Part shown: positions 1 through 57,057 of the stretch, piece after piece
Numbering within the stretch: position 1 is the stretch's first letter
Layout of the letters: each line of letters begins with the position of its first letter
Source of the DNA: Geosiphon pyriformis uo1
Lineage: Eukaryota; Fungi; Glomeromycota
Length of the DNA stretch: 64,000 nt
NCBI GenBank assembly: GCA_016748015.1
Contig: JAAOMT010000128.1
Location: 565,538-629,537 of the forward strand
Direction: 5' to 3'
Made by a program: the position numbers and the translations under genes
Notes under the pieces: model-generated
The model's database searches: none
What the model was told of the DNA's origin: nothing
The model's input: only the letters and a program-made list of their open reading frames with translations

Positions 1-403
1 ATTATTCAAACAGGAAAAGGCCAACAAGTAATCTTTTATCCTAAGATGTTCGGATACTTGAAGGTAGAAAAAGGAAAATTAGTGATAAGAGAGTGATTAA
101 GATGAAAGTTGTTATTTTTATTTATTTATTTGATTCTTGTCTGAGAGATCATTTTCTACAGCTAAGAGACTCATTGCTTATATAGCTATTGAAAATAGTC
201 AATGACCAGGTCAATGACTAGGTCAATAATCAGGTCAATGATTAGGTCAGCAATCAGGTCATTGATCAGGTCAATGATCAGGTCAACAGTCAGGTCATTA
301 ATCAAGTCAACAATCACTATCTAAAAATAGAGTGGCTAATTATATGACATCAGTGACTAATACATGTGATAACTAATAAAAATTATGGGTTTCAATCATA
401 ACA
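1..403 (-). repeat. A1 3' LTR (partial)
   Basis: Matches 6997-7235; begins TGTTATG on minus at 403, right after the PPT (GGAGAGGATGA, 404-414). Confidence 0.93.
198..314 (-). promoter_or_regulatory. 12-bp tandem array (GATCAGGTCAAT)n in family A LTR, upstream of TATA-like GCTATATAAGC
   Basis: About 9-10 imperfect units; found in variable number in the A LTRs. Confidence 0.75.
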
Positions 404-1029
404 TCATCCTCTCCAAAGAGATTGAGCTCTGGTGAAATCAAGTTATTTATAGGGTATTCTAATTGAAGGGTTTTGTCTAACTCAAAACTAACTAGTTTGT
501 TGAAGTCTTTTGTGGATAGAGTATATAGTACTTGAAGCGAAATAAGCTTTGTATCCAAGAGACCAAATCTTTGTATAAGAGTTTTGGCTCTTTTTGCAAT
601 GGTCAAAATTCTTGGGATATCTAAACGTATAATGCCCAAAATTTCCACTTGTATTTCTGAAGTTGTTTTCTTCATGAGCTTCATTTCTTCTATGATTTCA
701 CCAAAACAACCATAGAGTTCTAGTTGCCTTCCATATGACAAGTTTTTGTCTATGGGCAAAATTTTTTTAATCGTTTTTCCAATTTTTATGGAAGGTGTAA
801 GTATTGCTGCTTTTATGCTTTCCAGCAAATACTTATCTATTTTGCTACCAATTCTTTCTCTTCTGGTAGTGGTTTTTTTTGGTCTAATAACAGTATGTGT
901 TCTATTGTTATCAGTTATGGTGGTTTGTTTTCCAATGATCAGAGTAGCATTTGGATAATTTTTGATCCAGTACTTATAAAAAGTGTAGAAAGCATTTTGA
1001 ATGTTTTGATCTAGAAAATAATTGTTCAT
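373..1029 (-). CDS. ORF-X: accessory 3' ORF of family A, ~218 aa, unknown function
   Basis: Open frame (track 373..1125); likely ATG at 1029 (MNNYFLDQNIQ) after the integrase stop; runs through the PPT into the LTR; homologues in A2, A4, A5. Confidence 0.8.
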   Translation of the reverse strand: MNNYFLDQNIQNAFYTFYKYWIKNYPNATLIIGKQTTITDNNRTHTVIRPKKTTTRRERIGSKIDKYLLESIKAAILTPSIKIGKTIKKILPIDKNLSYGRQLELYGCFGEIIEEMKLMKKTTSEIQVEILGIIRLDIPRILTIAKRAKTLIQRFGLLDTKLISLQVLYTLSTKDFNKLVSFELDKTLQLEYPINNLISPELNLFGEDDVMIETHNFY

Positions 1030-1070
1030 GTCAATTGAAAATACCTCTGTTTTTGGAATGGTGCATTTAT

Positions 1071-2345
1071 TTATATCTGATTTTTGTTGATCATTTGGGT
1101 CGGTATTACCACAACAGGTAACCAATCAGGTCATTTGTGATATTTCTTGAGTCGTGTGTCATGAACAGGGCAATTATTGAAGATTGTTCCATATTGATCT
1201 TATAAGATATAAGAACCATTGTTTAAAACTTTGTTGACTATAAAGAGTTCTTTCTACCAGCTAGAAAATTTATCACCATAGACATTGTCTCTGTCTGAAC
1301 AGTATTCTAAAACTAAGTTACTAACACTTAAGGAAAGTGTTTTATATGTTTTCTTTTTCTTAAGCTTCTCTTGGAATTGTTTTATCTTTTCAAAGGCAAT
1401 TATTCATGCTTCTACTAATGAGTCAAGAATAGTACCAAGTCTTCTTTGCAAAATGTCCTTGTAATCTCCTATTGTTATTTCTTCAAAAGATATTGTTTCT
1501 ATATTCATTTCTATTGGTAGAGTTGCCATTTGTCCATAGAGCAGATAAAAGGGTTCATAACTTATTATGTCATGATTCACAGTTCTGTAGGTGAACAAAG
1601 CTGAAGACAATACTTTGTCCCATAGGTTGGTTTCTTCATTGGTTTTGGCTAGGGTTTCACATAGTGTTCTATTGAAACGGGAAGAAAGTTTATAATTTAT
1701 TCCCATTTTTCTGCAAAGTTCTTCAACCAGTGTACTGAGAAAAGCTCTTCCTCTATCAGATAAAAGTTCTTTGGGGCAGCCATGGTGACAGATAATATTT
1801 TCATAAATGAAATTGGCAATTGAGACTGCTGTTTGATCTAGGGTGGCTCTTGCTTCTACCCACTTTGTAAGATAATCAGTAGCTGTGATAATGTATCTGT
1901 TGCCATCAGGAGTTATTGTTAAAGGTTCAACAACATCTATACCAATTCTGTCAAATAGTTGACCAACAGAGATCAGATAGATATCTTCCTTGCAATTGGG
2001 TTTTCCTCTTCTTTGGCAGATATTACAGGTTTTGATGTATTCAGCAATGTCTTTACCCAAGGTAGGCCAATAATAGTGAGCTAAAGTTTTCTGAATTGTT
2101 TTTGTTTTTCCAAAGTGTCTAGCTAATGGATCAGTGTGCATATTGTAGATCACAATTTCTGTTTCTTCAAATCTAATGACTCTCTGGGGGTGGTCAGGAT
2201 CTTTTATATAACTGGTTCTGGTGAATCAAATAGAAATTTAATTGTTTGTGCAAATGTTCTCTTTGCTGTCGAGTATAGTCTAGCGGGTATTGTCCTTTAC
2301 CCAAAATTCCATTAAGGCAGAGTAGTTGTTCAAGTTTATTATTGT
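1071..2345 (-). pseudogene. A1 integrase (stand-alone ORF, disrupted)
   Basis: HTDPLARHFG..CNIC zinc finger, IGIDVV core, degenerate GPF-type C-terminus; stops and indels. Confidence 0.9.
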
Positions 2346-6669: not shown

Positions 6670-7235
6670 TGTTACAGGTTGGAGTAATAAGCTAATGGAT
6701 AGCAAGAAAGAACAGGATTGTAGGGTAATGAAAATTATCAAAGGGGATTCAACTTCAATGAGCGAATTGAATAAGTATGGATTCAATGTGCAAGATTAGT
6801 CTCATAAAATATCTCAGTTGCTATTTTTTTTCAAAGGTAACTGGGAAATCTGAAGGTAGAAGGATAGTCCATACTGTTAATAATTGATAACTGCTGATAT
6901 AATTCTATGCCTCATGTTAGCACTCTTAGAATTCAATATCAGGTATCAACTTGTGCTCTTCAGTCATGTTTATACAAATAGGCTTCAAATACTACAATTA
7001 TTCAAACAAGAAAAGGCCAACAAGTAATCTTTTATCCTAAGATGTTCGGATACTTGAAGATAGGAAAAAGGAAATTAGCAATAAGAGAGTGATTGAGATG
7101 AAAGTTGTTATTTTTATTTATTTGATTCTTGTCTGAGAGATCATTTTCTACAGCTAAAAGACTCATTGCTTATATAGCTATTGAAAGTGGTCAATGACCA
7201 GATCAACAGTCAGATCATTGATCAGGTCAACAATC
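6670..7235 (-). repeat. A1 5' LTR (outer ~90 bp lost)
   Basis: Ends TGTAACA before PBS; abuts the inverted A2 LTR. Confidence 0.9.
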
Positions 7236-9408: not shown

Positions 9409-10188
9409 TGTTACAGGTGACTACTTCTGGTGTTAAATTAAATAACAAACCTGTAACTTGGTGCTCAAATCTAGTTGCAGTTGATAGTGCTCTAAAGGTT
9501 TTGTATCTGAAGGTTTCAGTTTGAGTTCTTTGTATAATGGACAGAGATTCAATAGTTGTTTTATTTATAGCTTCCCAGAATTGCAATTCTGTCAATTTTT
9601 CTCTCAGTGTAATGACCAGCAATCCTTTGGTAAGTATTCCATATCTGCTGTACATGTCCTATCTTCTCACAGAGTTCTTTTACTAGGCAATCCTTGACAT
9701 CAGTAATCTAGCGCTTTATTCAACTTATTAGTACACAACAATAAAATCAAAATAAAATAAAGAAAAAAAATAAAAGAAAAATAAAGAAAGAAAAGAAATA
9801 AGTCAAGGTGATTTGCAAGTTAGTATTTCATCAATAGCCATGATCAAAAGCTATTGTTCCAGTGTGGTTAAGTATCAATTACTATCAACATGAAGTATTG
9901 ATAGTGGTAGTGAGTTTGAGATAACAAACAGTTATTTATTTGTGGTTTGGAAAGTTGTCTAAATGAAATCTAAACTGAGAGGTCTGTCTTTTTAGCTTCT
10001 AATCCTATTGCTATATATACATAATTGAGATTTCTCAATTTTTCAATTCTTCACAACAGGAATTCTGGGATTCCTGGAATCCTGCAATTCCTTTGAGAGG
10101 AATTCTGGAATTCCATATTTTACTATGTCTACTTCTAATTGGTTAATAACTATGCTAATATATATTCCCTATATTTCTATGAATAACA
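9409..10188 (-). repeat. B1 3' LTR
   Basis: TGTTA..TAACA termini; direct repeat of 14593-15447. Confidence 0.93.
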
Positions 10189-10201
10189 TTATTCCCTTCT
10201 T

Positions 10202-10445
10202 TTAATATTGAGCTCTGTCAAAATTTAACTTTGTTAATTCCCTTTTTTGAAGTATTTTCTGAATTTCATTTTCGAGAATTACTTGTGTTATTTGAGTCTG
10301 TAATTCTTCAAATTGAGTGTTAGTGATCTTTCTTAATTGATTACTGGTAACTGTATCTATTGCTTTGTTGAGTAAGATTTCTGGTCAATTCTGAAATGCT
10401 GTGTGTATTTAGTATATGGCTTGAGCCTGTGTGGATAAGTTGTTT
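10202..10445 (-). pseudogene. C-terminal remnant of family B ORF-X
   Basis: AIY*IHTAFQN*PEILLNKAIDTVTSNQLRKITNTQFEELQTQI aligns by eye with the ORF-X C-terminus of families C and A. Confidence 0.6.
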
Positions 10446-10449
10446 TTTC

Positions 10450-12332
10450 TTGGATATCTCAGATCAAATCCTGCATTAGTATCATGCACATGTTCTGGCA
10501 TGATACCTTTATTATTATCACTGAACCATTTTAGTTCTTGCTCCTTGATGAGGTCAGAGAGTACAATATATTGTTTGTAGTTTGAATTGGAGTTTGAATC
10601 TGAGTTGGAATTATTGTTATTGTTATAGCCATTTTAAATGGAGCTGGAACCATTATTTTTATTATCGTTGTTGTTGGAGTTTGAATTGGGATTGGAACTC
10701 GATTCCAATTCTGATGCACAGCTGTTGATTGGTTCTTTTTCTTTAGGGATTGTGTAAATCATGCATGGTGGTAGATTGTAGATGAGGTCACAATCATCAC
10801 AGAATTGGAAATCACATGGAATCAAACAGTGATTACATAATTGGGTGTTGATTTCTTCCAAGCACTGCTCTTGCTCTTCTCTCGTGGGTGCTAGATTCTG
10901 ATAGTGTTCATGGAATTTTTCTGGGCTGTTTTCTAAGTTGATAAAGGCATCCAATGTCTGTTGGTTCTGGAGGGTTATTTTTGATCTTCAAAATTTCACT
11001 GGGCAAAGCACTTTTTACTTTGGCATTGGCCATTCACCAGATCTCGTCCTTATCATGTGGATAGCCATCTAGGTGGAATATAGCTCAGTGCCATGCTGCT
11101 GTGATGGGCGTACCATGATTCACCCAGTTGCTAATGAGGATCGTGTATTGGCATGAAGCATCGCACATTCCTCTTTGACCAGAAATGTTGTTCCACATTC
11201 CTTCGTTGAGTAATTGTTCACTGTAAGTGAGACATGGTTTGTTGTCCCACTTGTCTTGTCTTTTTGGGTAGCCATATTATTTCCTATGGCAGGGCTTGCA
11301 ATAGTAATGGGTTTGCATCCAGTAGTCTTTGTCTGGCACTATCCAAGCTCTCATTGAGAACAGTTTCTTCCTACAGTCCTTGTATTTGAGAGATATATAT
11401 GGTGGCTCTTTTATTGGTTCATGTAAGTATTCCCTTTCCCAGCCACTAGTTATTTCTTCTGCAGTGGTGGTTTCTTCAGATATGTTTTCTTTCCTTCCTT
11501 TCTTTTTTTCCTTGTTCTTTTCTTCCCAATCTAGAATTGGTGGCATCTTGCTTTGGTTGTTGTTGATCCAAGTGTTAATGGTGGCTTCCCAGATAGGTTC
11601 TTCTCTTTGTTTCTCTTTTCTGTTGTCATTGTTGTCCCAGGCAAGTATTGGTGGCAGTTTGTTGTGATTGACGTCAGCCCATGAGACTTGGTATGCTTCC
11701 CAGGTGGGTTTCGTTTTTTCTTCTTCGAATTTAATAAGCAGTAGTGATGGCATGATGATAAGCTTGAAGTAGCCACACGTAGCTGGTACCTGTGTGTGTC
11801 AACTGTTCTGGCTAAGCTGGAGCTTTTGTGTGTTCTAATCTAGTGTTACATTGGTTTTGGACAGCCAGTTGTTCCCAACAAGTGCTTGGTATTGAGTGGC
11901 TTCCATGACAAGTACTTTGATTGGTACTATGATGCCATTGACTTCTATGGGGAAATCATTAATCTCTCTAATAGGTGTTTTGGTCACTCCATCAGCTGTA
12001 ATAATCTTGGTGCTGGCAGTGTGATCAACTTGGCAACCTAATTGATCCATGAATTGTTTTGTGATGATGCTGCCAGCTGATCTACTATCTAAGATCAGTT
12101 TGATGAAGTGACCATCAACTTTTACATCAGTGTACATTATGGTGATTGGTTTCTCTTCGAGTGCTGCTCCACTAAACAAAAGTGAATTGATGGTTTCTTT
12201 CAATTCAAAAAAAAAGATGGCTGCAAGAGATTCATTTTTGGTGATTATTGCTGATGAAATATTGTTGGTGAGTGTTGTTTGGGGTGGGTTGAATTCCGAG
12301 TTGTTGGTGATGACATCTTTTGGGGTAACCAA
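10450..12332 (-). pseudogene. B1 protease, Cys-rich domain and N-terminal dUTPase stub
   Basis: KLILDSRSAGSII; YYCKPCH; CNHCLIPCDFQFCDDC; HDTNAGFDLRYP (dUTPase motif 1), then a deletion. Confidence 0.85.
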
Positions 12333-12399
12333 GAGACTTAAATAGTTCTGGGAATTCGGTTTTTAGGTGAAACCAGTATCTAGATTTCGCTGTCGAGAG

Positions 12400-14531
12400 C
12401 CTGATAGTTGGTGAGAGGAGCTGGGGATTGGTTGATAAACAACCATTGCCGATCTCCAGTTTTGAATGATTCTAGGTCTTGGGTTTCTTGATGTTATTTG
12501 AGTGGAGTTTTGGAGTGGTGTTTAAATTGGTTGTTGGGACTAATAAATTATTTAGGGCTGCAGCTGATAAATTACCAGTGGCTGTGGTTGATAAATTGAA
12601 GGTTGATATACTGGCAGTTAATAGATTGGTTGCTGCGTCATCGGCAGGTAAGTGGTTTGATATTGGTCTTGATTTGGGTAGTGATTCTAAGTCTGAAATC
12701 TGCAATTGGGATTTTGATATTGATTTTCCGATCGTGAATTGTTGCTATAAAATTGACAGTCAGCTCTAATGTGATCTTGTTTACCACAGTTGTGGCAAAC
12801 ATGCATTTCTGGCTGTCACGGCTGATTGGGTAACGATAATGATGATAATGTTGATGGATGCAGCTGATTTTGGAAATGATTTGTGTTTTCTGAATTATTG
12901 CATTATTGTGGTGGTTGATAGATTGCACAATTGTCAACTAAGTATTTCTCTAGTTTCTGATTAATTGTATTACTGAATTGTTTTAGTTTGGAATCCAAGT
13001 CAGATGATCTGTTTATTACTAAATTTACAGCTTAGACATGGTTGGCTTCTAGCTTGGCTGCTTCAAAATCTTTGGCGTGGGTGATGGCAGTTGGGAGGTC
13101 AACTGGATGTATTGGATGTATTAGATGTACTCACTGATGAATACTACTGCACAATCCTCTGATGAACTGGTTCAAGATCTGTGGTGCTGTAAAGTAATCA
13201 GCTTAGATTGCCTGAATTTGGTGCAGATTTCTATGAAAACGTCCCAAGTAAGTGGTGACTGCTTCTGTATCCCCTTGTTTGATAGTGGTGAATGTGTTGG
13301 TCAAGCAATTAATACTATTGTTATTACTAAAGTATCTCAAGAATTCTGTTTTGAACTTATTGAAGATTTGTGGTTTGACAGCTAGACTCTGATACCATGA
13401 GTTGGCAGTATCTTTAAGAAAATAAGGGATCACTTAAAAGGCTCTACTGTTATTCCATCTGTTGGTTACTATGGCTTTTTTAATGTTATTGAGCCATATT
13501 TGGGCGTCGTTTTCTTCGCCAGTAAATTTGTCATGTTTTGCAATTGGTGCGTAGGCCATTGGATCTAAGTTGAGTTGTTGTGGTGGTAGTTGAAGTAGTT
13601 GTTGTTGCACAGATTGTTGAGGTGGTAATTAAAGTGGCGGTTGTAAGGGTTCAATTATTGAATTAATTGGTGGTTAATCAATGATGATTACTAGAAGTAA
13701 GTGTTGTTGATTTATTAAATTGGGGTTTCAATTATTCTGAGTTGGCGGTGTCTGAATATTCGGAGTTTCAATTTCCGGATTTTCTGAGTTTAAATTTTGC
13801 TGGGTTTGAAGATTTAGGGTTTCAAATTCCAGGTTTTTAGCGATTAGGTTCTGGTAAGTGAATTTTTAATCTTCAGCTTTTTTTTTTCTGATTCCATTAC
13901 TTTCTATGGATCAGAAATTCCGAAATCTGGGGGAGGCAGTGATAATCAAAGTCCTGATGGCGTTGATGATTGCAAGTTAAATCCTTCAAAATACGCACTG
14001 TATGGTCCTAATAACTCTGCTTTCCTTTGTTTACTTTGGAATAAGAATTATTCAAATGCTAATGTCATGTTTGATGTGGCCACACCAGTAGATGGTGCTT
14101 CTAGGTGTATAGTGATATAATGGATTAGTTGGGGACTCAACTCTTGTTTTCTTCTAAGTAGGTGGTTGTATTCTTTTGGGTATTACTGCTGGTGTTTGCA
14201 GTTTTCCTTTGCCTATGCTCATGTAAGTAATGAAGTATCTTTGCTGTGTATGGTGTTTAATTTTTTTGTTGATTTCAGTGATGATAGATGTGAAATTATG
14301 ATTTGTGGGTAGGCTGGTGTTTTGAATTAATTTATTGTAAAAAGTTTCTCTCGCTAATTCAATATTCATGGATGTTCCCAACAGATAAGCAGTCTTTTCA
14401 TTAATGTAGAAATTGAAAGCTGATTCTGCTGATATGTGATTATGAGTTAATCTCAAATATTGACAATAATGTTGAAATAAGGATTTCGCAAATCCTAGAT
14501 GGTTTGCTCCGATGTTTTCTGATTCTGCCAC
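12400..14531 (-). pseudogene. gag: B1 gag
   Basis: PIAKHDKFTGEE and IPYFLKDTANSWY capsid-like motifs, CHNCGKQDHIRADC knuckle near 12755-12800; lower boundary approximate. Confidence 0.8.
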
Positions 14532-14592
14532 TTTTGGATGGAGTTGTTGGTACTAGTTCTCTGTAAGATTAAACCTCACAGGGAGCACCAAA

Positions 14593-15447
14593 TATTACAG
14601 GCGACTACTTCTGGTGTTGGATTAAATAACAAACCCGTAACTTGGTGCTCAAATCTAGTTGCAGTTGATAGTGCTCTGAAGGTTTTGTATCTGAAAGTTT
14701 TGGTTTGAGTTTTTTGTATAATGAACAGAGATTCAATAGTTGTTTTATCCATAGCTTCCCAGAATCGCAATTCTGTCAATTTATTTCTTGGCATGATGGC
14801 CAGCAATCCTCTGGTAAGTATTCTGTATCTGCTGTACATGTCTTACCCTCTCACAGGGGTCTTTTACTAGGCAATCCTTGACATCAGTAATCTAGCACTT
14901 TATTCAACCAATTAGTGCACAACAATAAAATCAAAATAAAATAAATAAAAGAAATAAAAGAAAAATAAAGAAAGAAAAGAAATAAGCCAAGACAATTTGC
15001 AAATTAGTATTTCATCAATAGCCATGATCAAGAGCTATTGTTCCAGTATAGTTAAGTATCAATTACTATCAACATGAAGTGTTAATAGTGGCAGTGGGTT
15101 TGAAATAACAAACAGTTATTTATTTGTGGTTTGAAAAGTTGTCTAGATGAAATTTAAACTGAGAGGTCTGTCTTTTTAGCTTCTAATTCTACTGCTATAT
15201 ATACATAATTGAGATTTCTCAATTTCTCAATTCTTCACAACAGAAATCTTGGAATTTTTGGAATCCTGCAATTCCTTTGAGAGGAATCTTGGAATTCTGG
15301 AATCCTGCGATTCCTTGTAAGAATCCTGTAATTCCTGGAATCCTGCAATTCCTGAAAGAAATCCTGGAATTCCACATTTTACTATGTCTACTTCTGATTG
15401 GTTAATAACTATGCTAATATATATTCCCTATATTTCTATGAATAACA
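14593..15447 (-). repeat. B1 5' LTR
   Basis: Direct repeat of the 3' LTR with extra GGAATTCC/GGAATCC units. Confidence 0.93.
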
Positions 15448-15451
15448 ATGC

Positions 15452-19514: not shown

Positions 19515-20192
19515 ATGAACAATTATTTTCTGGATCAAAACATTCAAAATGTTTTCTATACTCTTCATGAGTATTGGATCAAAAACTATCCAAATGCTAC
19601 TCTGACCATTGGAAAACAAACCACCATAACTGATAATAGTGGAACACATACTGTTATCAGACCAAAGAAAACTATTACCAGAAGAGAAAAAATTGGTAGC
19701 AAAATGGATAAATATCTGTTGGAAAGTATAACAGCAGCTATACTTCTACCTTTCAGCATTATTGGAAAGACATTCCAAGAAATCTTATCTATAGACAAAA
19801 ACTTGTCATATAGAAGGCAATTAGAACTCTATGGTTACCTTAGTGAAATCATAGAGGATATGAAACTCATGAAAAAAACAACTTCAGAGATACAGGCAGA
19901 AATTTTGGATATTATATAATTAGATGTTCCAAGAGTTTTAACTATTTCTAGAAGAGCCAAAACTCTAATACAAAGATTTGGTCTTTTGAATACAAAACTC
20001 ATTTCACCTCAGGTATTATATACCCTATCCACAAAAGACTTTAACAAACTAGTTAGCTTTGAGTTAAATAAAACTCTTCAAATAGATTACATCATGAATA
20101 GCTTGATTTTGCTGAAGCTTAATCTCTTTGAAGAAAATAATATTATGGTTGAAACTTACTTCTTATTAAATATCACATGTATTAGCCACTGA
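19515..20192 (+). pseudogene. A2 ORF-X (internal stop)
   Basis: Homologous to 373-1029. Confidence 0.8.
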
Positions 20193-20769: not shown

Positions 20770-21416
20770 ATAGTAACTAATAAAGTTTCAACATAAAAGG
20801 GTTTCTCTATTATTGAAGCAGCTAGACAAAACATTTTAGCTATATTTCTTTTGAAAAATATTAGTGAAAAGCTGTCTTTTGTGGTTTTTGGTTCATTTTT
20901 TTCACTTTTGGCTAGTAGTTTTTCTTCAGTCAAAGTTCTTTTTAAAAAACACATTTAGGTTAGTCCTAGTGTTGTCTTTACTACTTCTAAAAGCCCAAAG
21001 ATTTTTAATAACAGACCAGTTAACAAGTTGGTTTTTCTTGCTCTTACTACTCTCACTACTATTACTACTACTACTGCTTTACATATAACTGCAAAAGCAA
21101 AAAATTCCAAAAAACAACAGCAGACAGTCACAACTGCTATGATCACACCAAACCTCTTTGTGGTTCTAGATGAGATCTTGGGTAAGATTTTTACAGCAGC
21201 AGCCAGCCTTTTTCTTAATATGGATGGCAACAGCAGCAGCACATCTCCCAAGATGGGCCAAGATCAACCACTAGCTATGTTGCCTAATGTGGTAATCTCT
21301 GGTAGATCATTGCCAATTCCAGAAGCAAAATAGTCTATTATTTCAGATGATTTTAAAGATTGGACTGATCAGATGGAAATAGAATCAACTGCTCCTCCCC
21401 CAGTTTTTGGTGCTGC

Positions 21417-23818
21417 TTTTTTTTTTTTGTTAATATGTAGCCACGCTGATTGTTTATTAGTTAAGTCCACAGTAATATGGTGGTTTCATAAAGCCAGCTT
21501 ACCCAATAATACAAAATCACAAGATGCAGCTAATTACAAGTGGAAAGTTTTAACTATATGCTAGTACTATCTTTGTTATCTAATGTATTGAACATATTAA
21601 ACTCATATATCTTACCCATAATGCTAACAAGCTCATGACTATTCTTAACCATACTACTTATTCACTTAGCAGTCTGATCAGAATTGGATTTGATACTAGG
21701 AGGCTGAACCTTCCACAGTTGTATTATCATATCAAAGGTGTCATTATAGACTGAAAAGTCTTTAACCTCATCATCATTATTATCTATATTATTATCATTA
21801 AAAACATCTTCTAAAGAGATCTGATTACATTTTTTTGTCAGGAACTTAATGTCTCAATTCAACATAAAAGCCACAGCAGCCACAGCTTTAATTTGTCTTT
21901 CCAAACTCACCATACTTTCTCTTAATATTATGTTTACAGCTGGTGGAGTAGATAGCAGTTTGGTAACCAGCACAACCAGAAAATTAACAAGTTCAATTAT
22001 AGACTTAACCAATAATGCTAACTCATTGAGATAAGATTCCATAGAAGCCAATCTGAATTCAACAACAGCAATTGGAACAGAGTATATGCCAGAAATCATG
22101 GGTACTACAACTTTGGAGGGTAAATCCAAAACAAGATCTATATCAACAGTAGCAGCAGCAAGAAAAACCACAAAGACAACAACTTTGGCATAAGACTTAG
22201 CTCCAGTGAACAAAAACTTGAAAACTTTGGGACCACCAGTAGAGTTAAGAACAGACTTGGAAGAAAGAGGTGGTAACACCTTGCAGTTTACAGCTAAATA
22301 ATCCAAATCTTGACACCTGTAGCAGCGACAGCATCTAGGAGTCTCCCACCAGATATGACAACCATGCAAAGTACTAGTTTTTAACACAGCATTGTCCAAG
22401 AATTCCAGAGAATTAAAGGTAACCACAGCAAAATGTTGACATTAGTATGAATTAAGAGATCAGGGAATGAAACAGGTTTGGCCACCAATCTGGAAAACTA
22501 AATCACTTATTTCAAAGACAGTACAGCCAAAGAAAAGATTAATCAACTTAGCTTTAAATGTATTTCTTGAAGCAATAACCTTTCTTTGGTTAACTACAGG
22601 AAAAATTCTGACACTATCTTTTTTGACCAGCACAGACCAGTGTTTAAAAGCCTCTGCAGTGAACCATAGCATATTGCCACAAGCCAGCTGGCTTCAACTT
22701 AACAGAAGTGACAACACCAAAAATGCCAAGAGCAGATTTGATGTCATTAAGAAAGGTACCCAAAAGAACATTGCGAAGTGCAACAAACAGAAGAGAAGAA
22801 GATACAGAGGCCACACCAGAAAACTGTGCAATCTTAAGAGTAGTCAGAAAAACTTTATTACCAATGGCCACTTTGATGGCACCATTTAAACTCTCCTGAA
22901 ATGCAAATTCCACACAGAACAACTTGACAGCATCTCATAAAACTAACTTAAGCCCAATACAACCAGACAGCAGCTGAAACAAGGAACTAAGCAAGACCAT
23001 TTTGATCTTAAATGTACTACCAGGCACAAGATTGGAGGCCATCCAACCAGAGAATCTTTGACAACCATTCACATTCTCCCAAGCACCACTATTAGCAGTG
23101 CCAGAAACTGGAGGAGGAGCAGTTGATTCTATTTCCATCTGATCAGCCCAATCTTTAAGATTATCTGAAGTGATAGACTGTTTTGCTACTATGACAGGTA
23201 AAGATCTGCTGGAGAGTACCACATCAGACAACACAGCTTGTGGTTAATCTTTTTTTATCTTGTGAGATGTGCTATTGCTGTTACCATTCATATTAGAAAG
23301 AAGGCTGACTGCTGCTGTGTAAATTTTTTTCAAGATCTCATCTGAAACTACAAAGGGGTTCAGTGTTACCATAGCAGTTGTGACTACCTGCTGCTGTTTT
23401 TTGGAATTTTTGGCTTTTGTGGCCATTTGTGAAGCAGTAGCAGTAGTAGAAATAGTAGTAGTGGTAAGAACAGAAAAGACCAACTTGTTAACTGGTCTGT
23501 TATTAAAAATCTTTGGGCTTTTTGAAGTGGTAAAAACAATACTGAGACTAACCCAAGTGTGCCTTTTTGAAAGAACTTTGACTGGAGAAGAACTTCTAGC
23601 TAAAGGAGAAGAAAATGAATCAAAAGCTGCTAAAAGCAGCTTTTCACTAGTGTTTTTTAAAGAAAATGTAGCCAGAATGTTTTGTCTAGTTGCTTCAATA
23701 ACAGAGAGACCTTCTCATGTTAAAACTTTATTAGTTACAATAGGAAAAGTAATGTTTGCAACTTTTTTACTCTTAGCTTTAGTCATAGTCATAAAATTTA
23801 GGAGAGAAAGAGGTTTTT
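21417..23818 (-). mobile_element. Family D copy D2: 2.4-kb non-LTR retroposon encoding only ORF1
   Basis: 14-bp TSD GTTTTTGGTGCTGC (21403-21416 / 23819-23832), A12 tail 21417-21428, AATAAA at 21453-21458. Confidence 0.9.
21554..23792 (-). pseudogene. LINE ORF1-like protein (~745 aa: S/T-rich N-terminus, RRM-like segments, CCHC knuckle, coiled coil)
   Basis: DIKSALGIFGVVTSVKLKPAGLWQYA; CYRCQDLDYLAVNC (H retained in D1); heptad-like RLASMESYLNELALLV. Confidence 0.75.
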
Positions 23819-24798
23819 GTTTTTGGTGCTGCCAATGGTAGTGCTTGAGAATATATGAATAGTTGTCAAAGGTTCTCTGGTTAGATGGCCTCCAATCTAG
23901 TATCTGGTGCTATATTTAAAATCAAAATAGCCCTGCTTAGTTTTTTGTTTCAGTTACTGTCTGGTTGTATTGGGCTTAAGTCTGTTTCAAGAGATATTGT
24001 TAAGTTGTTCTGTGTGGAATTTGCATCTTAGGAAAGTCTAAATGGCACTACCAAAGTGGCTATTGGTGATAAAAATTTTTTGACCACTTTTAAGATTGCA
24101 AAGTCTTCTGGTGTGGCCTCTGTTTTTTTCTCTCTTTTGTTAGTTGCACTTTGTGATGTATCTTTGGATACCTTTTTTGATGACATCAAATCTGCTCTTG
24201 GCATTTTTGGTGTTGTTATTTCTGTTAAGTTGAAGCCTGCTGGTTTATGGCAATATGCTGTGGTTTATTTTAAAGACACTTTTTCTGCTGTTGCCACTCT
24301 TACTTATTGGTCCAAACTGGTTAGGAAAAACAGTATTAGAATTTTTCTTATTATCAACCAAAATAATGTTATTTCTTCAAAAAATGCTTTTAAAACTAAA
24401 TTGGTTAATATTTTTTTTGGCTGTACTGCCTTTGAAATAAGTGATTTGGTCTCCCAAGTTGATAGCCATAGATGTTTCATTTTTCGCTCCCCTGAATCTT
24501 ACCAATGTTAACATTTTGCTGTGGTTACCTTTGATTTTTTGGAATTTCTGAATGTTGCTGTGTCAAAGACTGGTATTTTGCATAGTTGCCACATCTGGTG
24601 GGAAACTCTTGGATATTGCCACTATTACAGATGTTAAGACTTGAGTCATTTGGCTGTAGACTGCAAGGTATCACTTCTTCTCCCACCCAAATTCTCTTCT
24701 AATGCTTTTAGTGACCCCAAAATTTTCAAACCTTTATTTGTTAGATCTAAATCTTATGCCAAAGCTGTTGTCTTTGTGGTTTTTTCTGTTGCTGCTGC

Positions 24799-26184
24799 TG
24801 TTACCAGATGAAATTAGAGATATTATTTAGCATGAAATTATCTTTATTCCTATCATTAATTAGCATATATTATTGTCTCAAATTATCACCTATTACATTA
24901 ACAAAATGTCCGAAATTATCATTTAATTAATAACCCAATTTGTACATAACACAAATATAACCTAAGTGCAATGATTAATCATGCAATACCCCGAAATATA
25001 TAACATTCAAAAGTTCGCCAAAATTTGTAAAAATTTGCCGAAATAATTGACAGTTCACCAAAATATCTAATAGTTCACAGAAATAACTTGTAATTTGCCA
25101 AAATATATCTTCAGTTCAGCAAAATTGTAGAAAATAGCAAAGTTCAAGTTCATAAAATAGTGTTATGACAAGTTGTATAAAAGAAGAGCTTCTCTCTTCA
25201 AAAAAATGTATTTTACTTTAGATTTATTACTTAGAACCATTTCTATACACACAAAAAGAAATAAATATTAAATAATTTGAAAAACCAAATTCTTTAATTA
25301 TTGCACTTAGAAATCCCCAAAACCCAACTAACGTTTTGAAATTGATTAGCTACCAATTTCAGTAAAACTGTTAGTGACTCTGGGCCTGAATAGAAAACGT
25401 TTCCCTTAACAAAATTCTATTTCTTTTACATTTCTTTTATTTTCTTTCTTTTATTTTCTTATTATAATCATTAGGGTAGTCTACAGACAAAATTCCTGTA
25501 AAAGAATTGACTTTTACAGCAAAGTAACTACACATTTTTAGTAAGCTTCCAGACAAGCAATTCCTGGGAAAGAGTTGACATTTACTACAATGTAACTACA
25601 TGAAGCAACTGGCATGGAATTGGCCATTCCACTTATAAGNNNNNNNNNNNNNNNNNNNNAAAAGAAATAAATATTAAATAATTTGAAAAACCAAATTCTT
25701 TAATTATTGCACTTAGAAATCCCCAAAACCCAACTAACGTTTTGAAATTGATTAGCTACCAATTTCAGTAAAACTGTTAGTGACTCTGGGCCTGAATAGA
25801 AAACGTTTCCCTTAACAAAATTCTATTTCTTTTACATTTCTTTTATTTTCTTTCTTTTATTTTCTTATTATAATCATTAGGGTAGTCTACAGACAAAATT
25901 CCTGTAAAAGAATTGACTTTTACAGCAAAGTAACTACACATTTTTAGTAAGCTTCCAGACAAGCAATTCCTGGGAAAGAGTTGACATTTACTACAATGTA
26001 ACTACATGAAGCAACTGGCATGGAATTGGCCATTCCACTTATAAGCCCAGCAGTTCAAATTATAGGAGATAATTTGAAGATAAAATTCAGTTATCAGAGG
26101 TTCAAACACTTTCTATAGTCGTGAATTAACAGCATTACAACAAACATACAAGAGCTAAGAAGAGACCAAAAACCTCCAGTAACA
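24799..26184 (+). repeat. C1 5' LTR (true length ~980 bp; inflated by a duplication around an assembly gap)
   Basis: TGTTACC..GTAACA; about 25253-25639 is repeated after N20 at about 25660-26047. Confidence 0.9.
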
Positions 26185-26229
26185 TTTGGTGCTCTTCCAT
26201 GGAAACAATACAGCAAAAACAACTTCAAA

Positions 26230-28100: not shown

Positions 28101-28266
28101 TGCAGCATGACAACAAAACCCTTCTTATACTCTTACCACAATCCCACCAGCCAGAATTGCTAAAAATACCAACCTTTCAGATATATTCCCTTTTAAGTTT
28201 GAAGCAAATGAGTTACCATTCCTGCTTAGCAATGCAGTCTCCAATGAACAAAAAGCAATCACTGCT

Positions 28267-30016: not shown

Positions 30017-30449
30017 AATTCACAGTTCCAGTAAACATAGCCCTCAATGAACAGAAAGAATCTCACCAGATTTTATGACTTCCACAACCAATTACCATTT
30101 CACCCTTTGGAGAACACCCTGAAATTTATACTTGTGAAAAGCCAACAACCAAACAACAAATTTTTGAATCCAATGAACAAATTTGCTTAAAACATAATAT
30201 CTTGATCTTAAACATTTATATTCCAGAAGGAACAAAGAAAATCTGAGTTAATTTTTACAATCTCAACAATTTCCCCATATTTTTATTAAATAACTTAGAA
30301 ATTGGAGTTATTCACAGTAATATCTTTCAACAAGAATTACCCCAAACAGTCTCCGATTTCTCTGAAATTATTGGACATTTACTACCAAAAATTAACCCAA
30401 ACCCCAGCTCTGAAAACTACTATGTTGTCATGGAAAAACTATCTTGAAT

Positions 30450-33405: not shown

Positions 33406-34125
33406 ATGACTATTCCTTAAAACATTCAACAATTATCTCAAAAACTAATGTTAGCTTTAAAAACAATACCCGAATTATTCATTACTGTTACTGGAAGCCA
33501 CATTAATTATACCCAAACAGAAGTAGTTACAAATTTAGTCCCAAATTCACAAAAATATTACCTGTATAAGAAGAACACAAGAAGTTATTCTGGAATTCAC
33601 CTGCCAGAACTTTTAAAGCTTGCTTTAAGAGAAAACTTAATGCTCACTCCTATTAGTATTCCACCAAATGCTACTATTCAACAAAAACTTCAACTGTGTC
33701 TTAACGAAGAAAACTATGACTATACTCCAATATATAGATATTTTTACATTGGAAAAACACTTTATGAACGAAAACAGGAGCTTACAGCAGCAAACCTCAC
33801 AAAAGAAGCTATTCAGAAACAACTCCACAATGAATTCAAGACAACAGCTGGACCTACAAACAGTTGTTATAAACTAAGAGCTGTTCTTAGACTTTATGAC
33901 CTATTTCACACCTGTAAAAACGTTCTACAAAACCCAATTTTACAATCTTTGAAGATTCAATACATTGAAAAGCTCACAGAACTGAAATTTCAACAATTTT
34001 CAGACCAAATTTTTTCAATAATTTTGGATTATTATCTGGAAATTATAAACAGTACTTGGACTTTGATGGAGCTCAGTCTTGAGGAAGAAATTATATTACC
34101 AGATAAAATTAGAGATATTATTTAG
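33406..34125 (+). CDS. C1 ORF-X (~240 aa; early CAA>TAA stop, open from 33448)
   Basis: 225-aa open frame crossing the PPT into the 3' LTR; homologous to C2 56350-57057. Confidence 0.75.
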
Positions 34126-42453: not shown

Positions 42454-42580
42454 ATAAATCCACTATTCCCAAAACAAAGGTATCTTTAATCGACATAAAC
42501 AATTATTTTTTAGATCAAAACTTTCAAAACACCTTCTATACTCTTTATGAGTATTAGATCAAAAACTATCCAAATGCTAT

Positions 42581-42985: not shown

Positions 42986-43651
42986 TGTTACGGGTTGGAG
43001 TAACAAGTTAATAACTAGCAAGGGAGAACAGTATTGTATGGTGATGGAAATAAACAAAGAAAGAATTACAATAAGAGAGTGAATTGAATAAGTAGGAATT
43101 CAATGTGCATGATCAGTCTCATAAAAATCACAGTCGCTAATTTTTTCTTAAATCTGAAGGTAGAGAAATAGTCCATGATTGTCAACAAGATAATACCGCT
43201 GCTATTATTCTATGCCTCAACTTGGCGATTCTTAGAATCAATAACAGGTATCATTGTACTTTTCAATTGTTTCTTTATTCAATGAATTACAAGAGCAAGC
43301 CAATTGCTTCTCAGGCTAATTCTAACAAATACAAATCAAGAAAGAGAAAAGATAAGGTATGTGAATGCCAACAAGTAGATACTTGAAAGTAAGGAAAGGG
43401 GAATAAGCGATTATGAGAGGAAGTAATTAATATTGTTTATTTTGTTACTTTGATCATGTCTTTTTACAGCTAAGAGAATTATTGCTTATATAGCTATCTA
43501 AAGTGGTCAATGACCAGGTTAACGATCAGGTCAATGATTAGGTCATTGATCAGGTCAACAATCACTATCTAAAAATAGAGTGGCTAATTATATGACATCA
43601 GTGGCTAATACATGTAATAATTAATAAAAACTATGTGTTTCAACCATAACA
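42986..43651 (-). repeat. A4 3' LTR
   Basis: TGTTA..TAACA; repeat of 49495-50220. Confidence 0.92.
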
Positions 43652-44277
43652 TCATTCTCTCCAAAGAGATTGAGCTCTGGCGAAATCAAACTATTTATGG
43701 GATAGTCTATGTGAAGGGTTTTGTCTAACTCAAAACTAACTAGTTTGTTGAAGTCTTTTGTGGATAAAGTATATAGTACTTGAGGCGAAATAAGCTTTGT
43801 ATCCAAGAGACCAAATTTTTGTATAAGAGTTCTGGCTTTTCTTGCAATGGTCAAAACTCTTGGGACATCTAAATGTATAATGTCCAAAATTTCCACTTGT
43901 ATCTCTGAAGTTGTTTTCTTCATGAGCTTCATGTCTTCTATGATTTTACCAAGATAACCATAGAGTTCTAGTTGTCTTCCATATGACAAGTTTTTGTCTA
44001 TGGGCAAGATTTCTTGTATTGTTTTTCCAATTGTGCTGGAAGGTGAAAGTATCACTGCTGTTATGCTTTCCAGCAGGTATTTATTCATTTTGCCACCAAT
44101 TCTTTCTCTTCTGGTAGTTGTTTTCTTTGGTCTAATAACAGTGTGAGTTCCACTGTTGTCTGTTATAGTGGTTTGTTTTCTGATAGTCAGAGTAGCATTT
44201 AGATAATTCTTGATCCAGTACTCATGAAAAGTATAGAAAGCATTTTGAATGTTTTGATCCAGGAAATAATTGTTCAT
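43621..44277 (-). CDS. A4 ORF-X, intact 218 aa
   Basis: Open frame, same length as A1 ORF-X. Confidence 0.8.
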   Translation of the reverse strand: MNNYFLDQNIQNAFYTFHEYWIKNYLNATLTIRKQTTITDNSGTHTVIRPKKTTTRRERIGGKMNKYLLESITAVILSPSSTIGKTIQEILPIDKNLSYGRQLELYGYLGKIIEDMKLMKKTTSEIQVEILDIIHLDVPRVLTIARKARTLIQKFGLLDTKLISPQVLYTLSTKDFNKLVSFELDKTLHIDYPINSLISPELNLFGENDVMVETHSFY

Positions 44278-50220: not shown

Positions 50221-52762
50221 ATGCCATAACATATGTCAGTAGATCTCTTATACCAGCAAAAAAAATTATTCAGTTACTGAACAAGAATGTTTAGCAGTAG
50301 TTTGGGCTACTAGCTACTGGAATCAATATCTTCTTGGTGCAAAATTCTTAGTAGTAACAGATCATCAAGCCTTGGTTTGGCTGCACAATAAAAAAAAGCT
50401 GGAACACAAATGAATAACTCACTGAATACTCCACTTGGATGAATTCGACTATGATATTCAATACCACAAAGAAGCAAATCATCAAAATGCTAATGCTTTC
50501 TTTAGACTTATCATTCAATAATAGTACAACCTCTTAAACCAAACCAACTTAATTATTAGTAACTCTTTCACAAACAAACATGATAATAGACTTAGACAAC
50601 TACTCTGTCTTAATAAAATTTTTGGGTAAAGGACAATATCCACCAGAATACACTTGATAGCAAAGAGAACATTTGCAATAATAATCAAATTTCTATTTGA
50701 TCTGCCAGAACCAATTATACAAAAGAAACAGAAAAAATCCTAACTGTTCTTAGAGAGTCATTAGATTTAAAAAAAAAAATTGTAATATACAATATACACA
50801 CTGACTCATTAGCTGGACACTTTGAAAAAACAAAGACAATTCAGAAAACTTTAGCTTGCTATTATTGGTCTATCTTGGAAAAAGACATTGCTAAATACAT
50901 TAAAACCTGTAACATTTGCCAAAGAAGAGGCAAATCCAATTACAAAGAAGATATCCATCCAATCTCTGTTGATCAACCATTTAACAAAATTGGTATAGAT
51001 GTTGTTGGACTTTTAACAGTAACTCTTAATAACAACAGATACATTATTACAGCTACCAACTATCTTACAAAATGGGTAGAAGCAAGAGCCACTCCACACC
51101 AAACACCAGTCTCAATAGCCAATTTCATTTATGAAGATATTATTTGCTGTCATGACTGCCCCAAAGAACTTTTATCTGATAGAAGAAAAGCTTTTTTCAG
51201 TACACTAGTTGAAGAACTTTGTAGAAAAATGGGAATATGTCATAAACTTTCTTCCTCTTATCACCTCTAAACAAATGGCCTAGTAGAACATTTTAATAGA
51301 ACACTATGTGAAACCTTAGCCAAAACCAGTGAAGAAACAAACTTATAGAACAAAGTACTGTCTTCAGTTTTGTTTGTTTATAGACCTGTGAATCATGACA
51401 TAACAAGTTATAAATCTTTTTATCTGCTCTATAGATGCATAGCAACACTACCAATAGAAACTAACATCGAAACAATATCTTTTGAAAAGATGACAATAGG
51501 AAATTACAAAAACATTTTGCAAAGAAAACTTGGTATCATTCTTGACTCCTTGGTAGAAGCATGAATAATTGCTTTTAAAAAAATAAAACAGTTTCAAGAA
51601 AAAGAAAACCTATAAAACACTTTCTTTAAGTGTTGGTAACTTGGTACTAGAATACTATTCTAACAGAGACAATGTTTATGGTGATAAGTTCTCTAGCCAA
51701 TAGAAAGAACCCTTTATAGTCAACAAAGTTTTGAACAATGGTTCTTATATTCTTTAAGATTAATTCAGAACAATCTTCAATGATCATTCTGTTCATAGTA
51801 CATGACTCAAGAAATATCATAAACAATCTGATTGGCTGCCTATTGTGGTAATACTGATTTAAATGATCAGCAAAAATCAAGTATAAATAAATGCACCATT
51901 TCCAAAACAGAGGTATTTTCAATTAACATAAACAATTATTTTCTGGATCAAAACATTCAAAATGCTTTCTATACTCTATATAAGTATTGGATTAAAAACT
52001 ATTCAAATGCTACTCTGACCATTGGAAGACAAATCACTATAACTGATAACAGTATAACACATACTGTTATTAGACCAAAAAAAACTACTACTAGAAGAGA
52101 AAAAATTGGTAGTAAAATAGATAAATATCTATTGGAAAGTATAACAGCAGCTATACTCTTATCTTTTAACACAATTAAAAAAACACTCCAAAAAATCTTA
52201 TTTATAGACAAAAACTTGTCATATGGAAAGCAATTAGAACTCTATGGTCGCTTTGGTGAAATCATTGAGGATATGAAACTCATGAAGAAAACAACTTCAG
52301 AGATACAGGCAGAAATTTTGGGCATTATATGATTAGATGTCTCCAGAGTTTTAATTATTGCTAAAAGAGCCAAAACTCTAATACAAAGATTTGGTCTTTT
52401 GAATACAAAACTCATTTCACCTCAAGTGTTATATATCTTATTCACAAAAAACTTCAACAAACTAGTTAGCTTTGAGTTAAATAAAACCCTTCAAATAAAT
52501 TACTCCATAAATAGCTTGATTTTGCTGGAGTTTAATCTCTTTGGAAAGGATGATATTATAGTTAAAACTTATACTTCTTATTAATTATCACATGTATTAG
52601 CCACTGATGTTATATAAATTAGTCACACTATTTTTAGATAGTGATTATTGATCTGATCAATAACTTGACCATTAATCTGATTATTGATCTAGTTGTTGAC
52701 CTGATCATTGACCACTTTTGACAGCTATATAAGCAATAAATTTCTTAACTGTAGAAAAGCAT
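50221..52762 (+). mobile_element. Family A copy A5, 3' part only (RNaseH end, IN, ORF-X, start of 3' LTR at 52554)
   Basis: Collinear with A2 from ~17795 onward. Confidence 0.9.
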
Positions 52763-55395: not shown

Positions 55396-56369
55396 TGTTA
55401 CTAGAGGTTTTTGGGTCTCTTTTCTTAAATGTTGGTAATGTTGATTTGCTGTGAATTCACGTTTTCAGGAAGTAGTTAAACCTCCAGTAACTGAATTTAT
55501 CTTCAAATTATCTCTTATAATTTGAACTGCTGGGCTTATAAATGGAATGGCCAATTCCTTGCCAGTTATTTTATGTAGTTACATTGTAGTAAATGTCAAC
55601 TCTTTTCCAGGAATTGCTCATCTAGAAGCTCACTAAAAAAATGTGTAGTTATTTTGCTGTGAAAGTCAACTTTTCTACAGGAATCTCGTCTGTAGACTAC
55701 CCTAATGATTGTAATAAGAAAAGAAAAATAAAATAAAAGAAATGTAAAGGAAATAGAATTCTGTTAAGGGAAACGTTTTTTATTTAGGCCTGGAGTCACT
55801 AACAGTTTACTGAAATTGGTAGCTAATCAATTTCGAAATGTTAGTTGGGTTTTGGGGATTTTCCAAGTGTAATAATTAAAAAATTTGGTTTTTCAAATTA
55901 TTTGATATTTATTTTTTTCTGTGTGTATAGGAATGGTTCTGAGTAATAAATCTAAAGTAAGATACATTTTTTTGAAGAGAAAAGCTCTTCTTTTATACAA
56001 CTTGTTGTAGTACTAATCTATGAACTTGCACTTTTTCTCTTTGCTCAAATTTTGGCGAACTAAAGATACATTTTGATGAACTACAAGTTATTTTGCTGAA
56101 CTATTGATTAATTTGGGTGAATTATTCATAATTTCGGCAAATTTCTGTAAATTTCGGCGAATTTTAGAATGTTACAAAGTTCAGGGTATTGTGTAATTTG
56201 ATCATCCTACTTTTTGTTATACTAATTGAATTATTTAATTGAATTGTGATATGTGATAATTGATTAAATAATAAATGATAATTTGAAATAATATTAATAT
56301 ACTAATTAATTATAGGAATTATAAGAGTAATTTTCCTGCTAATTAATAGCTAAAATTCTACTGGTAACA
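55396..56369 (-). repeat. C2 3' LTR
   Basis: TGTTAC..GTAACA; related to C1 LTRs with a diverged U3. Confidence 0.92.
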
Positions 56370-57057
56370 TAATCTCTTTCTCAAGACTGAGCTCCATCAA
56401 AGTCCAAGCACTATCTGTAATATTGAGATAGTGATCCAAAATAATTGAAGTAATCTGGTCTGAAAATTGTTGAAATTTCAGTTCTGTGAGTTTGCCAATA
56501 TATTGGACTTTCATTGGTTGCAGTATTGGATTTTGTAGAACATTTTCACAAGTATTAAACAAATTATAGAGTCTAAAAGCTGTTCTAAGTTTGTAGTAAG
56601 TGTTTGTTGGTCCAGCTGCTGTTTTGAATTCATTGTGGATTTGTTTTTGTATAGCTTCAGAAGTGAGATTTGTTGCTTTAAGTTCTAGTTTTCATTCATA
56701 AAGTGTCTTTTCAATGTGAAAGTATTTATAGATAGAAGTGTGTTCATTGTTCTGTTCATTGAGAAGTAGTAGAAGTTTTTGTTGCATTGTAGCATTTGAT
56801 GGAATGTCAATAGGGGCAATTAAAAAATTTTCTTTTAGTGCTTGCTTCAAAAGTCTTGGTAACCTATTTTCAGAGTGACTTCTTATTTTTCTTCTATAGG
56901 GGTGATAGTTCTGTAAATGATTTGCTACTGGAGCTGTGGTTTTTTTCTGAATGTAATTAATTTGACTTCTATTAATCATTATGGATAAGTCAGGAAGTGT
57001 TTTTAAGGCTAATATTAACTTTTGGGATATTTGTTAAATATTTCGGAGAATAATCAT
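56350..57057 (-). pseudogene. C2 ORF-X
   Basis: Homologous to 33406-34125; internal stops. Confidence 0.8.

What the first reader, a model, noticed from the sequence alone, without database searches (positions are those of the whole stretch)
373..1029. ORF-X: a conserved, non-env accessory protein at the 3' end of three divergent Gypsy families
Seen: a 218-240 aa ORF lies between integrase and the 3' LTR in families A and C. It is fully open in A1 and A4 and open for 225 aa in C1, and it reads through the PPT into U3. Family B keeps its C-terminal tail. Although the LTRs of these families are unrelated, the proteins align by eye. The N-termini read QNIQ..IKNYPNATLTI (A) and QNIQ..LKTIPELFITV (C). 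The C-termini read AKRAKTLIQRFG..ISPQVLYTLSTKDFNKL (A), AVLRLYDLFH..LKIQYIEKLTELKFQQF (C) and AIYxIHTAF..VTSNQLRKITNTQFEEL (B). There is no signal peptide or TM helix, so this is not Env. Inference: an ancient soluble helical accessory factor, such as an anti-silencing protein, transactivator or integrase-targeting cofactor, that defines an undescribed fungal LTR clade.
Basis: partly seen in the sequence, partly recalled or inferred. Interest (0 to 1): 0.85.

Follow-up and report, generated by a model that had tools for sequence, protein, structure and literature searches.

The report
Extra soluble gene in fungal retrotransposons
Several families of jumping genes in the fungus Geosiphon carry a real, unnamed extra gene just after their integrase; it is clearly shared by two of the three families in this window and probably by the third, it is predicted to be soluble and helical rather than an envelope protein, and it likely acts as a nucleic-acid-binding regulator of the element itself.

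Summary
The ORF is real. At 373-1029 (-) a 218-aa gene lies between integrase and the 3' LTR of a Geosiphon pyriformis Gypsy element and runs through the PPT into U3. Copies show purifying selection after correcting for the transition-rich mutation spectrum (omega 0.33-0.51 between subfamilies; RT 0.41). Families B and C are homologous (hhalign 94.9%, E 4.5e-8). A profile search added at least six more families, three from unnamed metagenomes; one contig shows the same RT-RH-IN, ORF-X, PPT, LTR order. Family A, the ORF at these coordinates, fails direct profile-profile tests against B and C. It is linked only through a bridge protein, a motif-chain test (p about 0.01) and shared cis-elements, so homology is probable (about 75%), not proven. 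No transmembrane segment and no significant Pfam match; the best PHROG matches (E 0.001-0.003) are unnamed families. An AlphaFold model of the bridge protein (pLDDT 80) has a helical core with a helix-turn-helix-like element; ParB-type matches are at noise level. Best guess: DNA-binding regulator of its own LTR (about 40%). Extra ORFs at this position are a known kind; this family appears undescribed. This scan noted similar extra genes in other fungal genomes.

The parts
373..1029 (-). ORF-X, family A copy A1, 218 aa, open; last 10 codons lie in U3 of the 3' LTR
404..414 (-). polypurine tract inside ORF-X, directly before the LTR start
421..429 (-). GAGCTCAAT motif before the PPT, shared by families A, B, C and the metagenomic family F
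1..403 (-). 3' LTR of A1 (cut by the window edge; 667 bp in copy A4)
1065..1075 (-). pol stop codon within a TATA-like stretch 46 nt upstream of the ORF-X ATG; present in 5 of 5 A copies; promoter role untested
1407..2225 (-). integrase of A1 (zinc finger and core), decayed
   Evidence: Pfam PF17921, PF00665
2606..3493 (-). RT / RNase H of A1, decayed
   Evidence: Pfam PF00078, PF17917, PF17919
6647..6663 (-). primer-binding site beginning TGGTGCT, a start shared by A, B and C
6670..7230 (-). remnant of the 5' LTR of A1
43621..44277 (-). ORF-X copy A4, 218 aa, open
19515..20171 (+). ORF-X copy A2 (second subfamily), stop at codon 135, tail shifted; end approximate
51928..52584 (+). ORF-X copy A5, start codon lost, stop at codon 135
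42495..42579 (+). truncated 5' piece of a family A ORF-X
33406..34125 (+). ORF-X copy C1, 239 codons, stop at codon 5, reads through the PPT into U3
56350..57057 (-). ORF-X copy C2 (second subfamily, 64% identical to C1), two internal stops
10202..10444 (-). C-terminal third of family B ORF-X, left by an internal deletion; full-length family B protein is P0257 (209 aa)

Best explanation
ORF-X is a selected third gene of a group of chromodomain-less Gypsy retrotransposons that encodes a predicted soluble helical protein of 209-245 aa, and it likely works as a DNA-binding regulator of its own element, probably made from a shorter subgenomic RNA. Shown: fixed position between integrase and PPT, purifying selection, homology of B, C and six further families, no transmembrane stretch. 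Predicted: a small N-terminal helix plus beta-hairpin, a basic flexible linker, a helical core with a helix-turn-helix-like element (turn G-K-T-N, next helix carrying an invariant Arg) and a long C-terminal helix. Inferred: the protein enters the nucleus, binds the LTR or nearby element DNA and raises transcription or shields it from methylation-based silencing. Family A is probably a divergent member of the same family (about 75%).
For: Selection: spectrum-corrected omega 0.33-0.51 in the 4 between-subfamily A pairs and 0.49 for C1-C2, each 0 of 2000 null draws; RT-RH of A4-A2 0.41, dUTPase region 0.39; two non-coding LTR controls not significant. Homology: B vs C hhalign 94.9%, E 4.5e-8, 174 columns; shuffle z 10-12; 112 representatives at E<=0.001 with the B+C profile, including families D-I at 24-45% identity to each other. 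Position outside this genome: L001 has RT-RH-IN-SH3, a 316-nt spacer, ORF-X, PPT, LTR; L002 has the pol end upstream. The spacers in C (about 120 nt) and F hold stops, which argues against a pol fusion. Model: pLDDT 80, pTM 0.65, core 80-200 at 86-96. Conserved across nine families: Arg155 9 of 9, Phe160 9 of 9, Ile195 9 of 9, Asn145 8 of 9, basic residues at 131, 143, 151, 182 in 6-7 of 9. Weak fold matches spanning the core include Spo0J (Z 3.8, rmsd 4.0, 87 aligned), Raf1 (3.4, 5.3, 91), KorB (3.3, 4.3, 92), ParB (3.2, 3.1, 59); Pfam DUF1016_N E 0.12 in 1 of 26 members. Host context: CpG observed/expected 0.14 and 50 of 51 A4 LTR-LTR differences are transitions; DNA methylation and small RNAs act on TEs in a related fungus (10.1101/2021.03.30.436303, passages). 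For family A: against bridge protein P0336 mean z 4.3-4.4 over 22 members with the PPT tail removed, above all 16 controls (highest mean 2.05); five motif blocks from non-A families fall in order at near-matching positions, 0, 2, 3 and 5 of 300 shuffles reaching the score for the four members tested, and the mean of 22 members (39.9) lies above all 38 other window ORF tiles (max 33.4); A is also the outlier in pol (IN tail 25-37% to the others vs 50% C-F).
Against: No functional data at all. The ParB-type Z-scores are tied with unrelated helical proteins and lie below the tool's noise level (top row Z 4.6 is a designed protein). The Geosiphon proteins are basic (pI 8.5-9.5) but the two intact metagenomic ones are acidic (5.4, 5.9). 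The model is of P0336, not of the family A protein at the finding's coordinates.
Confidence: 0.4

Rival explanations
1. ORF-X is an RNA-binding accessory protein: a Rev-like export factor, a particle-associated RNA chaperone, or a suppressor of RNA interference.
For: Basic flexible linker (residues 42-51, pLDDT under 50) and conserved Arg/aromatic residues fit RNA as well as DNA. Gypsy elements are a main source of small RNAs in Rhizophagus. Retroviral accessory genes with such roles lie between pol and the 3' LTR (PMC7264820, passages).
Against: No RNA-binding family matched in Pfam or PHROGs; gag already has a zinc knuckle.
Confidence: 0.25
2. ORF-X is an integrase cofactor or chromatin tether that stands in for the missing chromodomain and steers insertion into TE-rich regions.
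For: The integrases end in an SH3-like domain and a short tail with no chromodomain hit; ORF-X divergence follows pol divergence; the window is almost wholly nested copies.
Against: It is a separate ORF with stops upstream in C and F, not an integrase fusion; nesting is expected from copy density alone (41.2% LTR in this genome, PMC11952901, passage).
Confidence: 0.15
3. Family A's ORF-X is a real gene but unrelated to the B/C family: two different genes were taken up at the same permissive site, and the likeness comes from helical periodicity, AT-rich codons and the shared pre-PPT DNA motif.
For: All profile-profile tests negative; no A-type hit among 112; composition-corrected BLAST mostly loses the bridge.
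Against: Bridge signal survives removal of the PPT tail and exceeds 16 controls; motif chain in order at matching offsets; same size, strand, site and reading frame over the pre-PPT motif as C and F.
Confidence: 0.25
4. ORF-X is an env-like or cell-to-cell movement protein.
For: Same place and strand as env and plant env-like ORFs (PMC7264820).
Against: No hydrophobic stretch (maximum 1.29 over 19 residues, 8 of 8 proteins); no env family in Pfam; short length.
Confidence: 0.04

Closest known systems
Sense additional ORFs between pol and the 3' LTR (aORF-3S) of LTR retrotransposons (review PMC7264820; passages seen)
   Same: Position, strand, presence in most copies, unknown function.
   Different: Those described are plant and insect ORFs, often with transmembrane segments and called env-like; ORF-X is fungal, has no hydrophobic segment and overlaps the PPT and U3.
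'add. ORF' of unknown function and dUTPase in fungal Gypsy elements (PMC2864245; figure legend and passages seen)
   Same: Fungal Gypsy elements with an extra ORF; dUTPase between PR and RT as in families B and C here.
   Different: Other fungal lineages; the figure itself and the ORF's sequence were not seen, so kinship is untested.
TRP28 ORF of plant Retand elements (PMC11963269; abstract, Background and Discussion read)
   Same: [quoted passage not shown]
   Different: Antisense, plant, has a Pfam domain that ORF-X did not match.
ParB/Spo0J/KorB helix-turn-helix domains and DUF1016_N
   Same: Helix-turn-helix-like arrangement followed by a helical subdomain (pattern recalled); Z 3.2-3.8 over 59-92 residues.
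   Different: Scores at noise level; no ParB nuclease-fold domain; no significant sequence match.
Retroviral accessory genes such as HIV nef (overlap with PPT and U3 recalled), tat and rev
   Same: Small non-structural gene at the 3' end that runs into U3.
   Different: No sequence or fold relation found; analogy of layout only.

Membership tests
Ty3/Gypsy LTR retrotransposon (host element) | gag, then PR-RT-RH-IN order between direct LTRs | tested here: met
   Pfam hits in order and LTR pairs
Ty3/Gypsy LTR retrotransposon (host element) | TG...CA LTR ends, PBS, PPT, target-site duplication | tested here: met
   TGTTA...TAACA ends, TGGTGCT PBS, PPT; 4-bp duplications at B1, C1 and a solo A LTR, not at A4
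Chromovirus | chromodomain at the integrase C-terminus | tested here: not met
   no chromo hit on the IN tails of A4, C1, L001 or family B gene models; window copies are decayed but L001 is nearly intact
Ylt1-like or other named non-chromoviral clade | RT phylogeny with reference elements | not testable with these tools
   no reference RT sequences could be fetched
Sense additional ORF (aORF-3S) | sense ORF between pol and 3' LTR | tested here: met
   8 window copies or remnants; L001, L002
Sense additional ORF (aORF-3S) | kept across copies and families under selection | tested here: met
Sense additional ORF (aORF-3S) | expression from a spliced or subgenomic RNA | not tested
   no reads were laid on the element
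Env / env-like proteins | transmembrane anchor and hydrophobic signal peptide | tested here: not met
   hydropathy maximum 0.27-1.29 in 8 of 8 proteins; no dedicated signal-peptide predictor was run
ParB/KorB-type HTH domain | significant structural match | tested here: inconclusive
   Spo0J Z 3.8 (rmsd 4.0, 87 aligned), KorB Z 3.3 (4.3, 92), tied with unrelated chains
ParB/KorB-type HTH domain | profile match to ParB-HTH, KorB or DUF1016_N | tested here: inconclusive
   DUF1016_N E 0.12, 12.9 bits against a cut-off of 32.8, in 1 of 26 members; single-sequence scans only
ParB/KorB-type HTH domain | DNA binding | not testable with these tools
   needs a binding assay
ORF-X family (B-I) for the family A protein | significant profile-profile similarity | tested here: not met
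ORF-X family (B-I) for the family A protein | bridge homologue and ordered motifs | tested here: inconclusive
   positive but modest; sensitive to composition correction

The most novel reading that the evidence does not exclude
ORF-X is a ParB/KorB-like helix-turn-helix protein carried by a whole undescribed clade of fungal Gypsy elements, family A included, that binds its own LTR sequence-specifically and counters host methylation: a transposon-encoded anti-silencing factor of a fungal LTR element, and a reason why LTR elements fill 41% of the Geosiphon genome.
Probability: 0.15. Interest if true: 0.8.

Novelty: new variant of a known kind. Interest (0 to 1): 0.5.

Why it matters
Fungal LTR retrotransposons are usually described as gag plus pol. 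A selected, soluble third gene kept across at least eight families whose members are only 24-45% identical gives a concrete protein with which to test how these elements expanded in a genome with strong CpG loss. It also explains several hundred 'hypothetical proteins' in the Geosiphon annotation as transposon genes (122, 204 and 49 hits). The kind of gene is known and its function is not shown, which caps the score.

Tried and rejected
Fold searches of the P0336 model gave no clear match: Foldseek PDB 0 hits at E<=0.001, BFVD 0, VIA wide 0 chains at Z>=5 of 48,161, VIA second look 0 at Z>=5 of 982; this shows neither a different nor a new fold. Homodimer prediction of P0336: no answer, score 0.01, no evidence either way. 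RNA runs: none was listed for the A4 element, so no reads were laid. PDB sequence searches: best E 0.11 importin-5 and E 0.01 FtsQ, judged chance. PHROGs: only unnamed families at the top, best E 0.0012; phrog_23683 in 7 of 26 members, best E 0.0028, not followed up. tblastn of P0336: phages no match, plasmids best E 2. Viral contigs: 0 of 601 pattern matches confirmed. The ESM Atlas gave no answer. No whole genome was held, so genome-wide linkage counts were not possible. Raw Nei-Gojobori omega (0.14-0.24 between subfamilies) was set aside because transition bias lowers it; the corrected values are those, where A2-A5 (0.80) and RT A4-A1 (0.68) are not significant. That two A copies are open is not read as host-level selection: pol of the same copies also has long open stretches. 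A frameshift fusion to pol is possible in A (open 32 codons upstream, overlapping the pol end) but not in C or F. The TATA-like stretch upstream of the ATG is weak evidence in AT-rich DNA. A profile-profile test against ParB or DUF1016 alignments was not run because no such sequences were obtained. Literature: eight searches listed no description of this ORF; subscription journals, Repbase and supplements were not seen, and the repeat libraries of the Geosiphon genome papers may bear on this.

Full report
Setting. The window is a nest of decayed Gypsy LTR retrotransposons. Homologue searches name the source: of the 120 listed hits for the family A protein 119 are Geosiphon pyriformis hypothetical proteins and one is the window's own (122 hits among 459 candidates); likewise for family C (204 among 358, 120 listed) and all 49 hits for the family B tail. 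LTR sequence is reported to cover 41.2% of this genome (PMC11952901, passage). Copies decay almost only by transitions, and CpG observed/expected is 0.14.

373-1029 (-) encodes 218 aa without a stop, starts about 40 nt after the pol stop, crosses the PPT (404-414) and ends 31 nt inside the 3' LTR. The window holds five A copies (two open), two C copies (each with stops) and the last 80 codons of a B copy. In B the gene ends just before the PPT. Full-length B (P0257, 209 aa) was found elsewhere in the genome.

It is a gene. Differences pile up at third positions (23/18/58 for A4-A2, 55/39/89 for C1-C2) and the other frames are closed. Because transitions lower naive dN/dS, I redrew the same base changes at random sites: corrected omega is 0.33, 0.43, 0.47 and 0.51 for the four between-subfamily A pairs and 0.49 for C1-C2, each with 0 of 2000 null draws as extreme; A1-A4 gives 0.51 (6 of 2000) and A2-A5 0.80 (382 of 2000). 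RT-RH of A4-A2 gives 0.41 and two LTR controls were not significant. ORF-X was therefore constrained about as strongly as pol while the lineages were active.

The family. B and C align end to end (hhalign 94.9%, E 4.5e-8). The B+C profile found 112 representatives among 1.84 billion proteins, including six more families (D-I) at 24-45% identity. Of 19 newly found hits that I looked up, 16 are G. pyriformis and 3 are unnamed metagenome proteins; no other named species turned up among them. A metagenome scan confirmed 3 of 413 pattern matches. L001 carries RT-RH-IN-SH3 with one stop, a 316-nt spacer, ORF-X, PPT and the LTR start; L003 gives the whole LTR; L002 shows the pol end upstream of another family's ORF-X. 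The layout is thus not peculiar to this assembly.

Family A is the weak link. Direct profile comparisons fail: probability 0.2 (A-C), 0.3 (A-B), 0.4 (A vs B+C), 0.6-0.9 against a nine-family profile, and 15-27 of 40 block-shuffled controls do as well. No A-type protein is among the 112 hits apart from a chimeric gene model. A, B, C and F share TGTTA LTR starts and a GAGCTCA(A/G)T motif before the PPT, and A, B and C share a PBS beginning TGGTGCT. That motif dictates the ELNL/ELSL tail, so the tail is evidence for shared DNA ends and not for protein kinship. A is also the outlier in pol and lacks the dUTPase of B and C. I put homology at about 75%.

Structure. With a 26-sequence alignment AlphaFold2 gave P0336 pLDDT 80, pTM 0.65: helix 7-21, hairpin 25-38, a disordered basic linker 42-51, helices 54-66, 82-95, 100-119, 126-141, 146-160, short helices and a long helix 185-221. 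Across nine families the conserved positions are a Y-x-Y-F-x-I-G helix, the turn G-K-T-N, invariant Arg155 and Phe160, and an I-N-x-I-G-K-I-T-like segment. The helix-turn-helix with a following helical subdomain recalls ParB-family DNA-binding domains (recalled pattern), and Spo0J, Raf1, KorB and ParB appear in the VIA list with Z 3.2-3.8 over 59-92 residues, tied with unrelated helical chains. Pfam gives DUF1016_N at E 0.12 in 1 of 26 members. This is a lead only. No protein has a membrane-spanning stretch (8 of 8).

How it most likely works. A downstream ORF behind stop-filled spacers needs its own RNA or re-initiation; a TATA-like stretch sits 46 nt upstream in 5 of 5 A copies but is weak evidence. 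A soluble protein with a basic linker, conserved Arg and aromatic residues and an HTH-like core is most simply a nucleic-acid-binding regulator of the element. I favour DNA binding at the LTR with activation or protection from silencing (0.40) over RNA binding (0.25), integrase tethering (0.15) and env-like roles (0.04). Every step beyond position, selection, homology of B-I and hydropathy is inferred.

Comparison and novelty. Sense extra ORFs between pol and the 3' LTR are known (PMC7264820, passages), a DNA-binding regulator has been proposed for the antisense TRP28 ORF of Retand (PMC11963269, abstract, Background, Discussion), and fungal Gypsy elements with an 'add. ORF' or a dUTPase are on record (PMC2864245, passages; PMC6431247, passages). 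A survey of fungal LTR elements describes gag and pol as the usual content (PMC3248453, passages). Eight literature searches listed no account of this protein family. This scan's own notes report similar small helical genes after integrase in other fungal genomes; sequence look-ups with A, C and F proteins found no look-alike there, so whether they are the same family is open. Verdict: a real, apparently undescribed protein family in a known kind of slot; function unproven; interest 0.5.

Noticed in passing
window 421-429 (-), 43669-43677 (-), 34069-34077 (+), 56386-56394 (-), 10207-10215 (-), 55309-55317 (+); L001 about 3093: A GAGCTCA(A/G)T motif sits a few bases before the PPT in all four families and is read in a different frame in B, so it is probably a cis-element of reverse transcription rather than a protein motif.
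   Followed up: partly
L002 425-811 (+): A second 128-aa ORF lies between pol and ORF-X in this metagenomic element; no Pfam hit; faint likeness (E 0.02-0.3) to the C-terminal half of family C ORF-X, possibly a tandem paralogue.
   Followed up: partly
window 29602-29955 (+), 60133-60492 (-), 10256-10519 (-): dUTPase between protease and RT in families C and B; none found in family A.
   Followed up: partly
window 34127-34225 (+) and the matching 5' LTR near 24832: A 32-codon ORF with a hydrophobic, signal-peptide-like start begins right after the ORF-X stop in U3 of C1; not kept in the C2 LTR, so probably chance.
   Followed up: partly
window 41340-42005 (+), 9411-15450 (-), 24799-35072 (+): Target-site duplications are 4 bp (solo A LTR, B1, C1); the flanks of A4 do not match, suggesting recombination between copies.
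   Followed up: partly
window 25254-26045 (+): A 386-bp stretch of the C1 5' LTR is duplicated at 100% identity amid copies that differ by about 8%; likely an assembly artefact or a very recent duplication.
   Followed up: no
window 20770-21417, 21738-24802, 35148-35489: Fragments of another repeated element (Ser/Thr-rich and basic ORFs, no Pfam hit) lie between the Gypsy copies; related text also appears fused to ORF-X in several gene models (P0289, P0290, P0318).
   Followed up: no
window 53961-54560 and 54784-55233: Tandem repeats of about 86-89 bp and short Asn/Ser-rich repeats inside a family B element.
   Followed up: no
window about 57200-57670: An assembly gap (run of N) removes the end of the C2 integrase just upstream of its ORF-X.
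   Followed up: no
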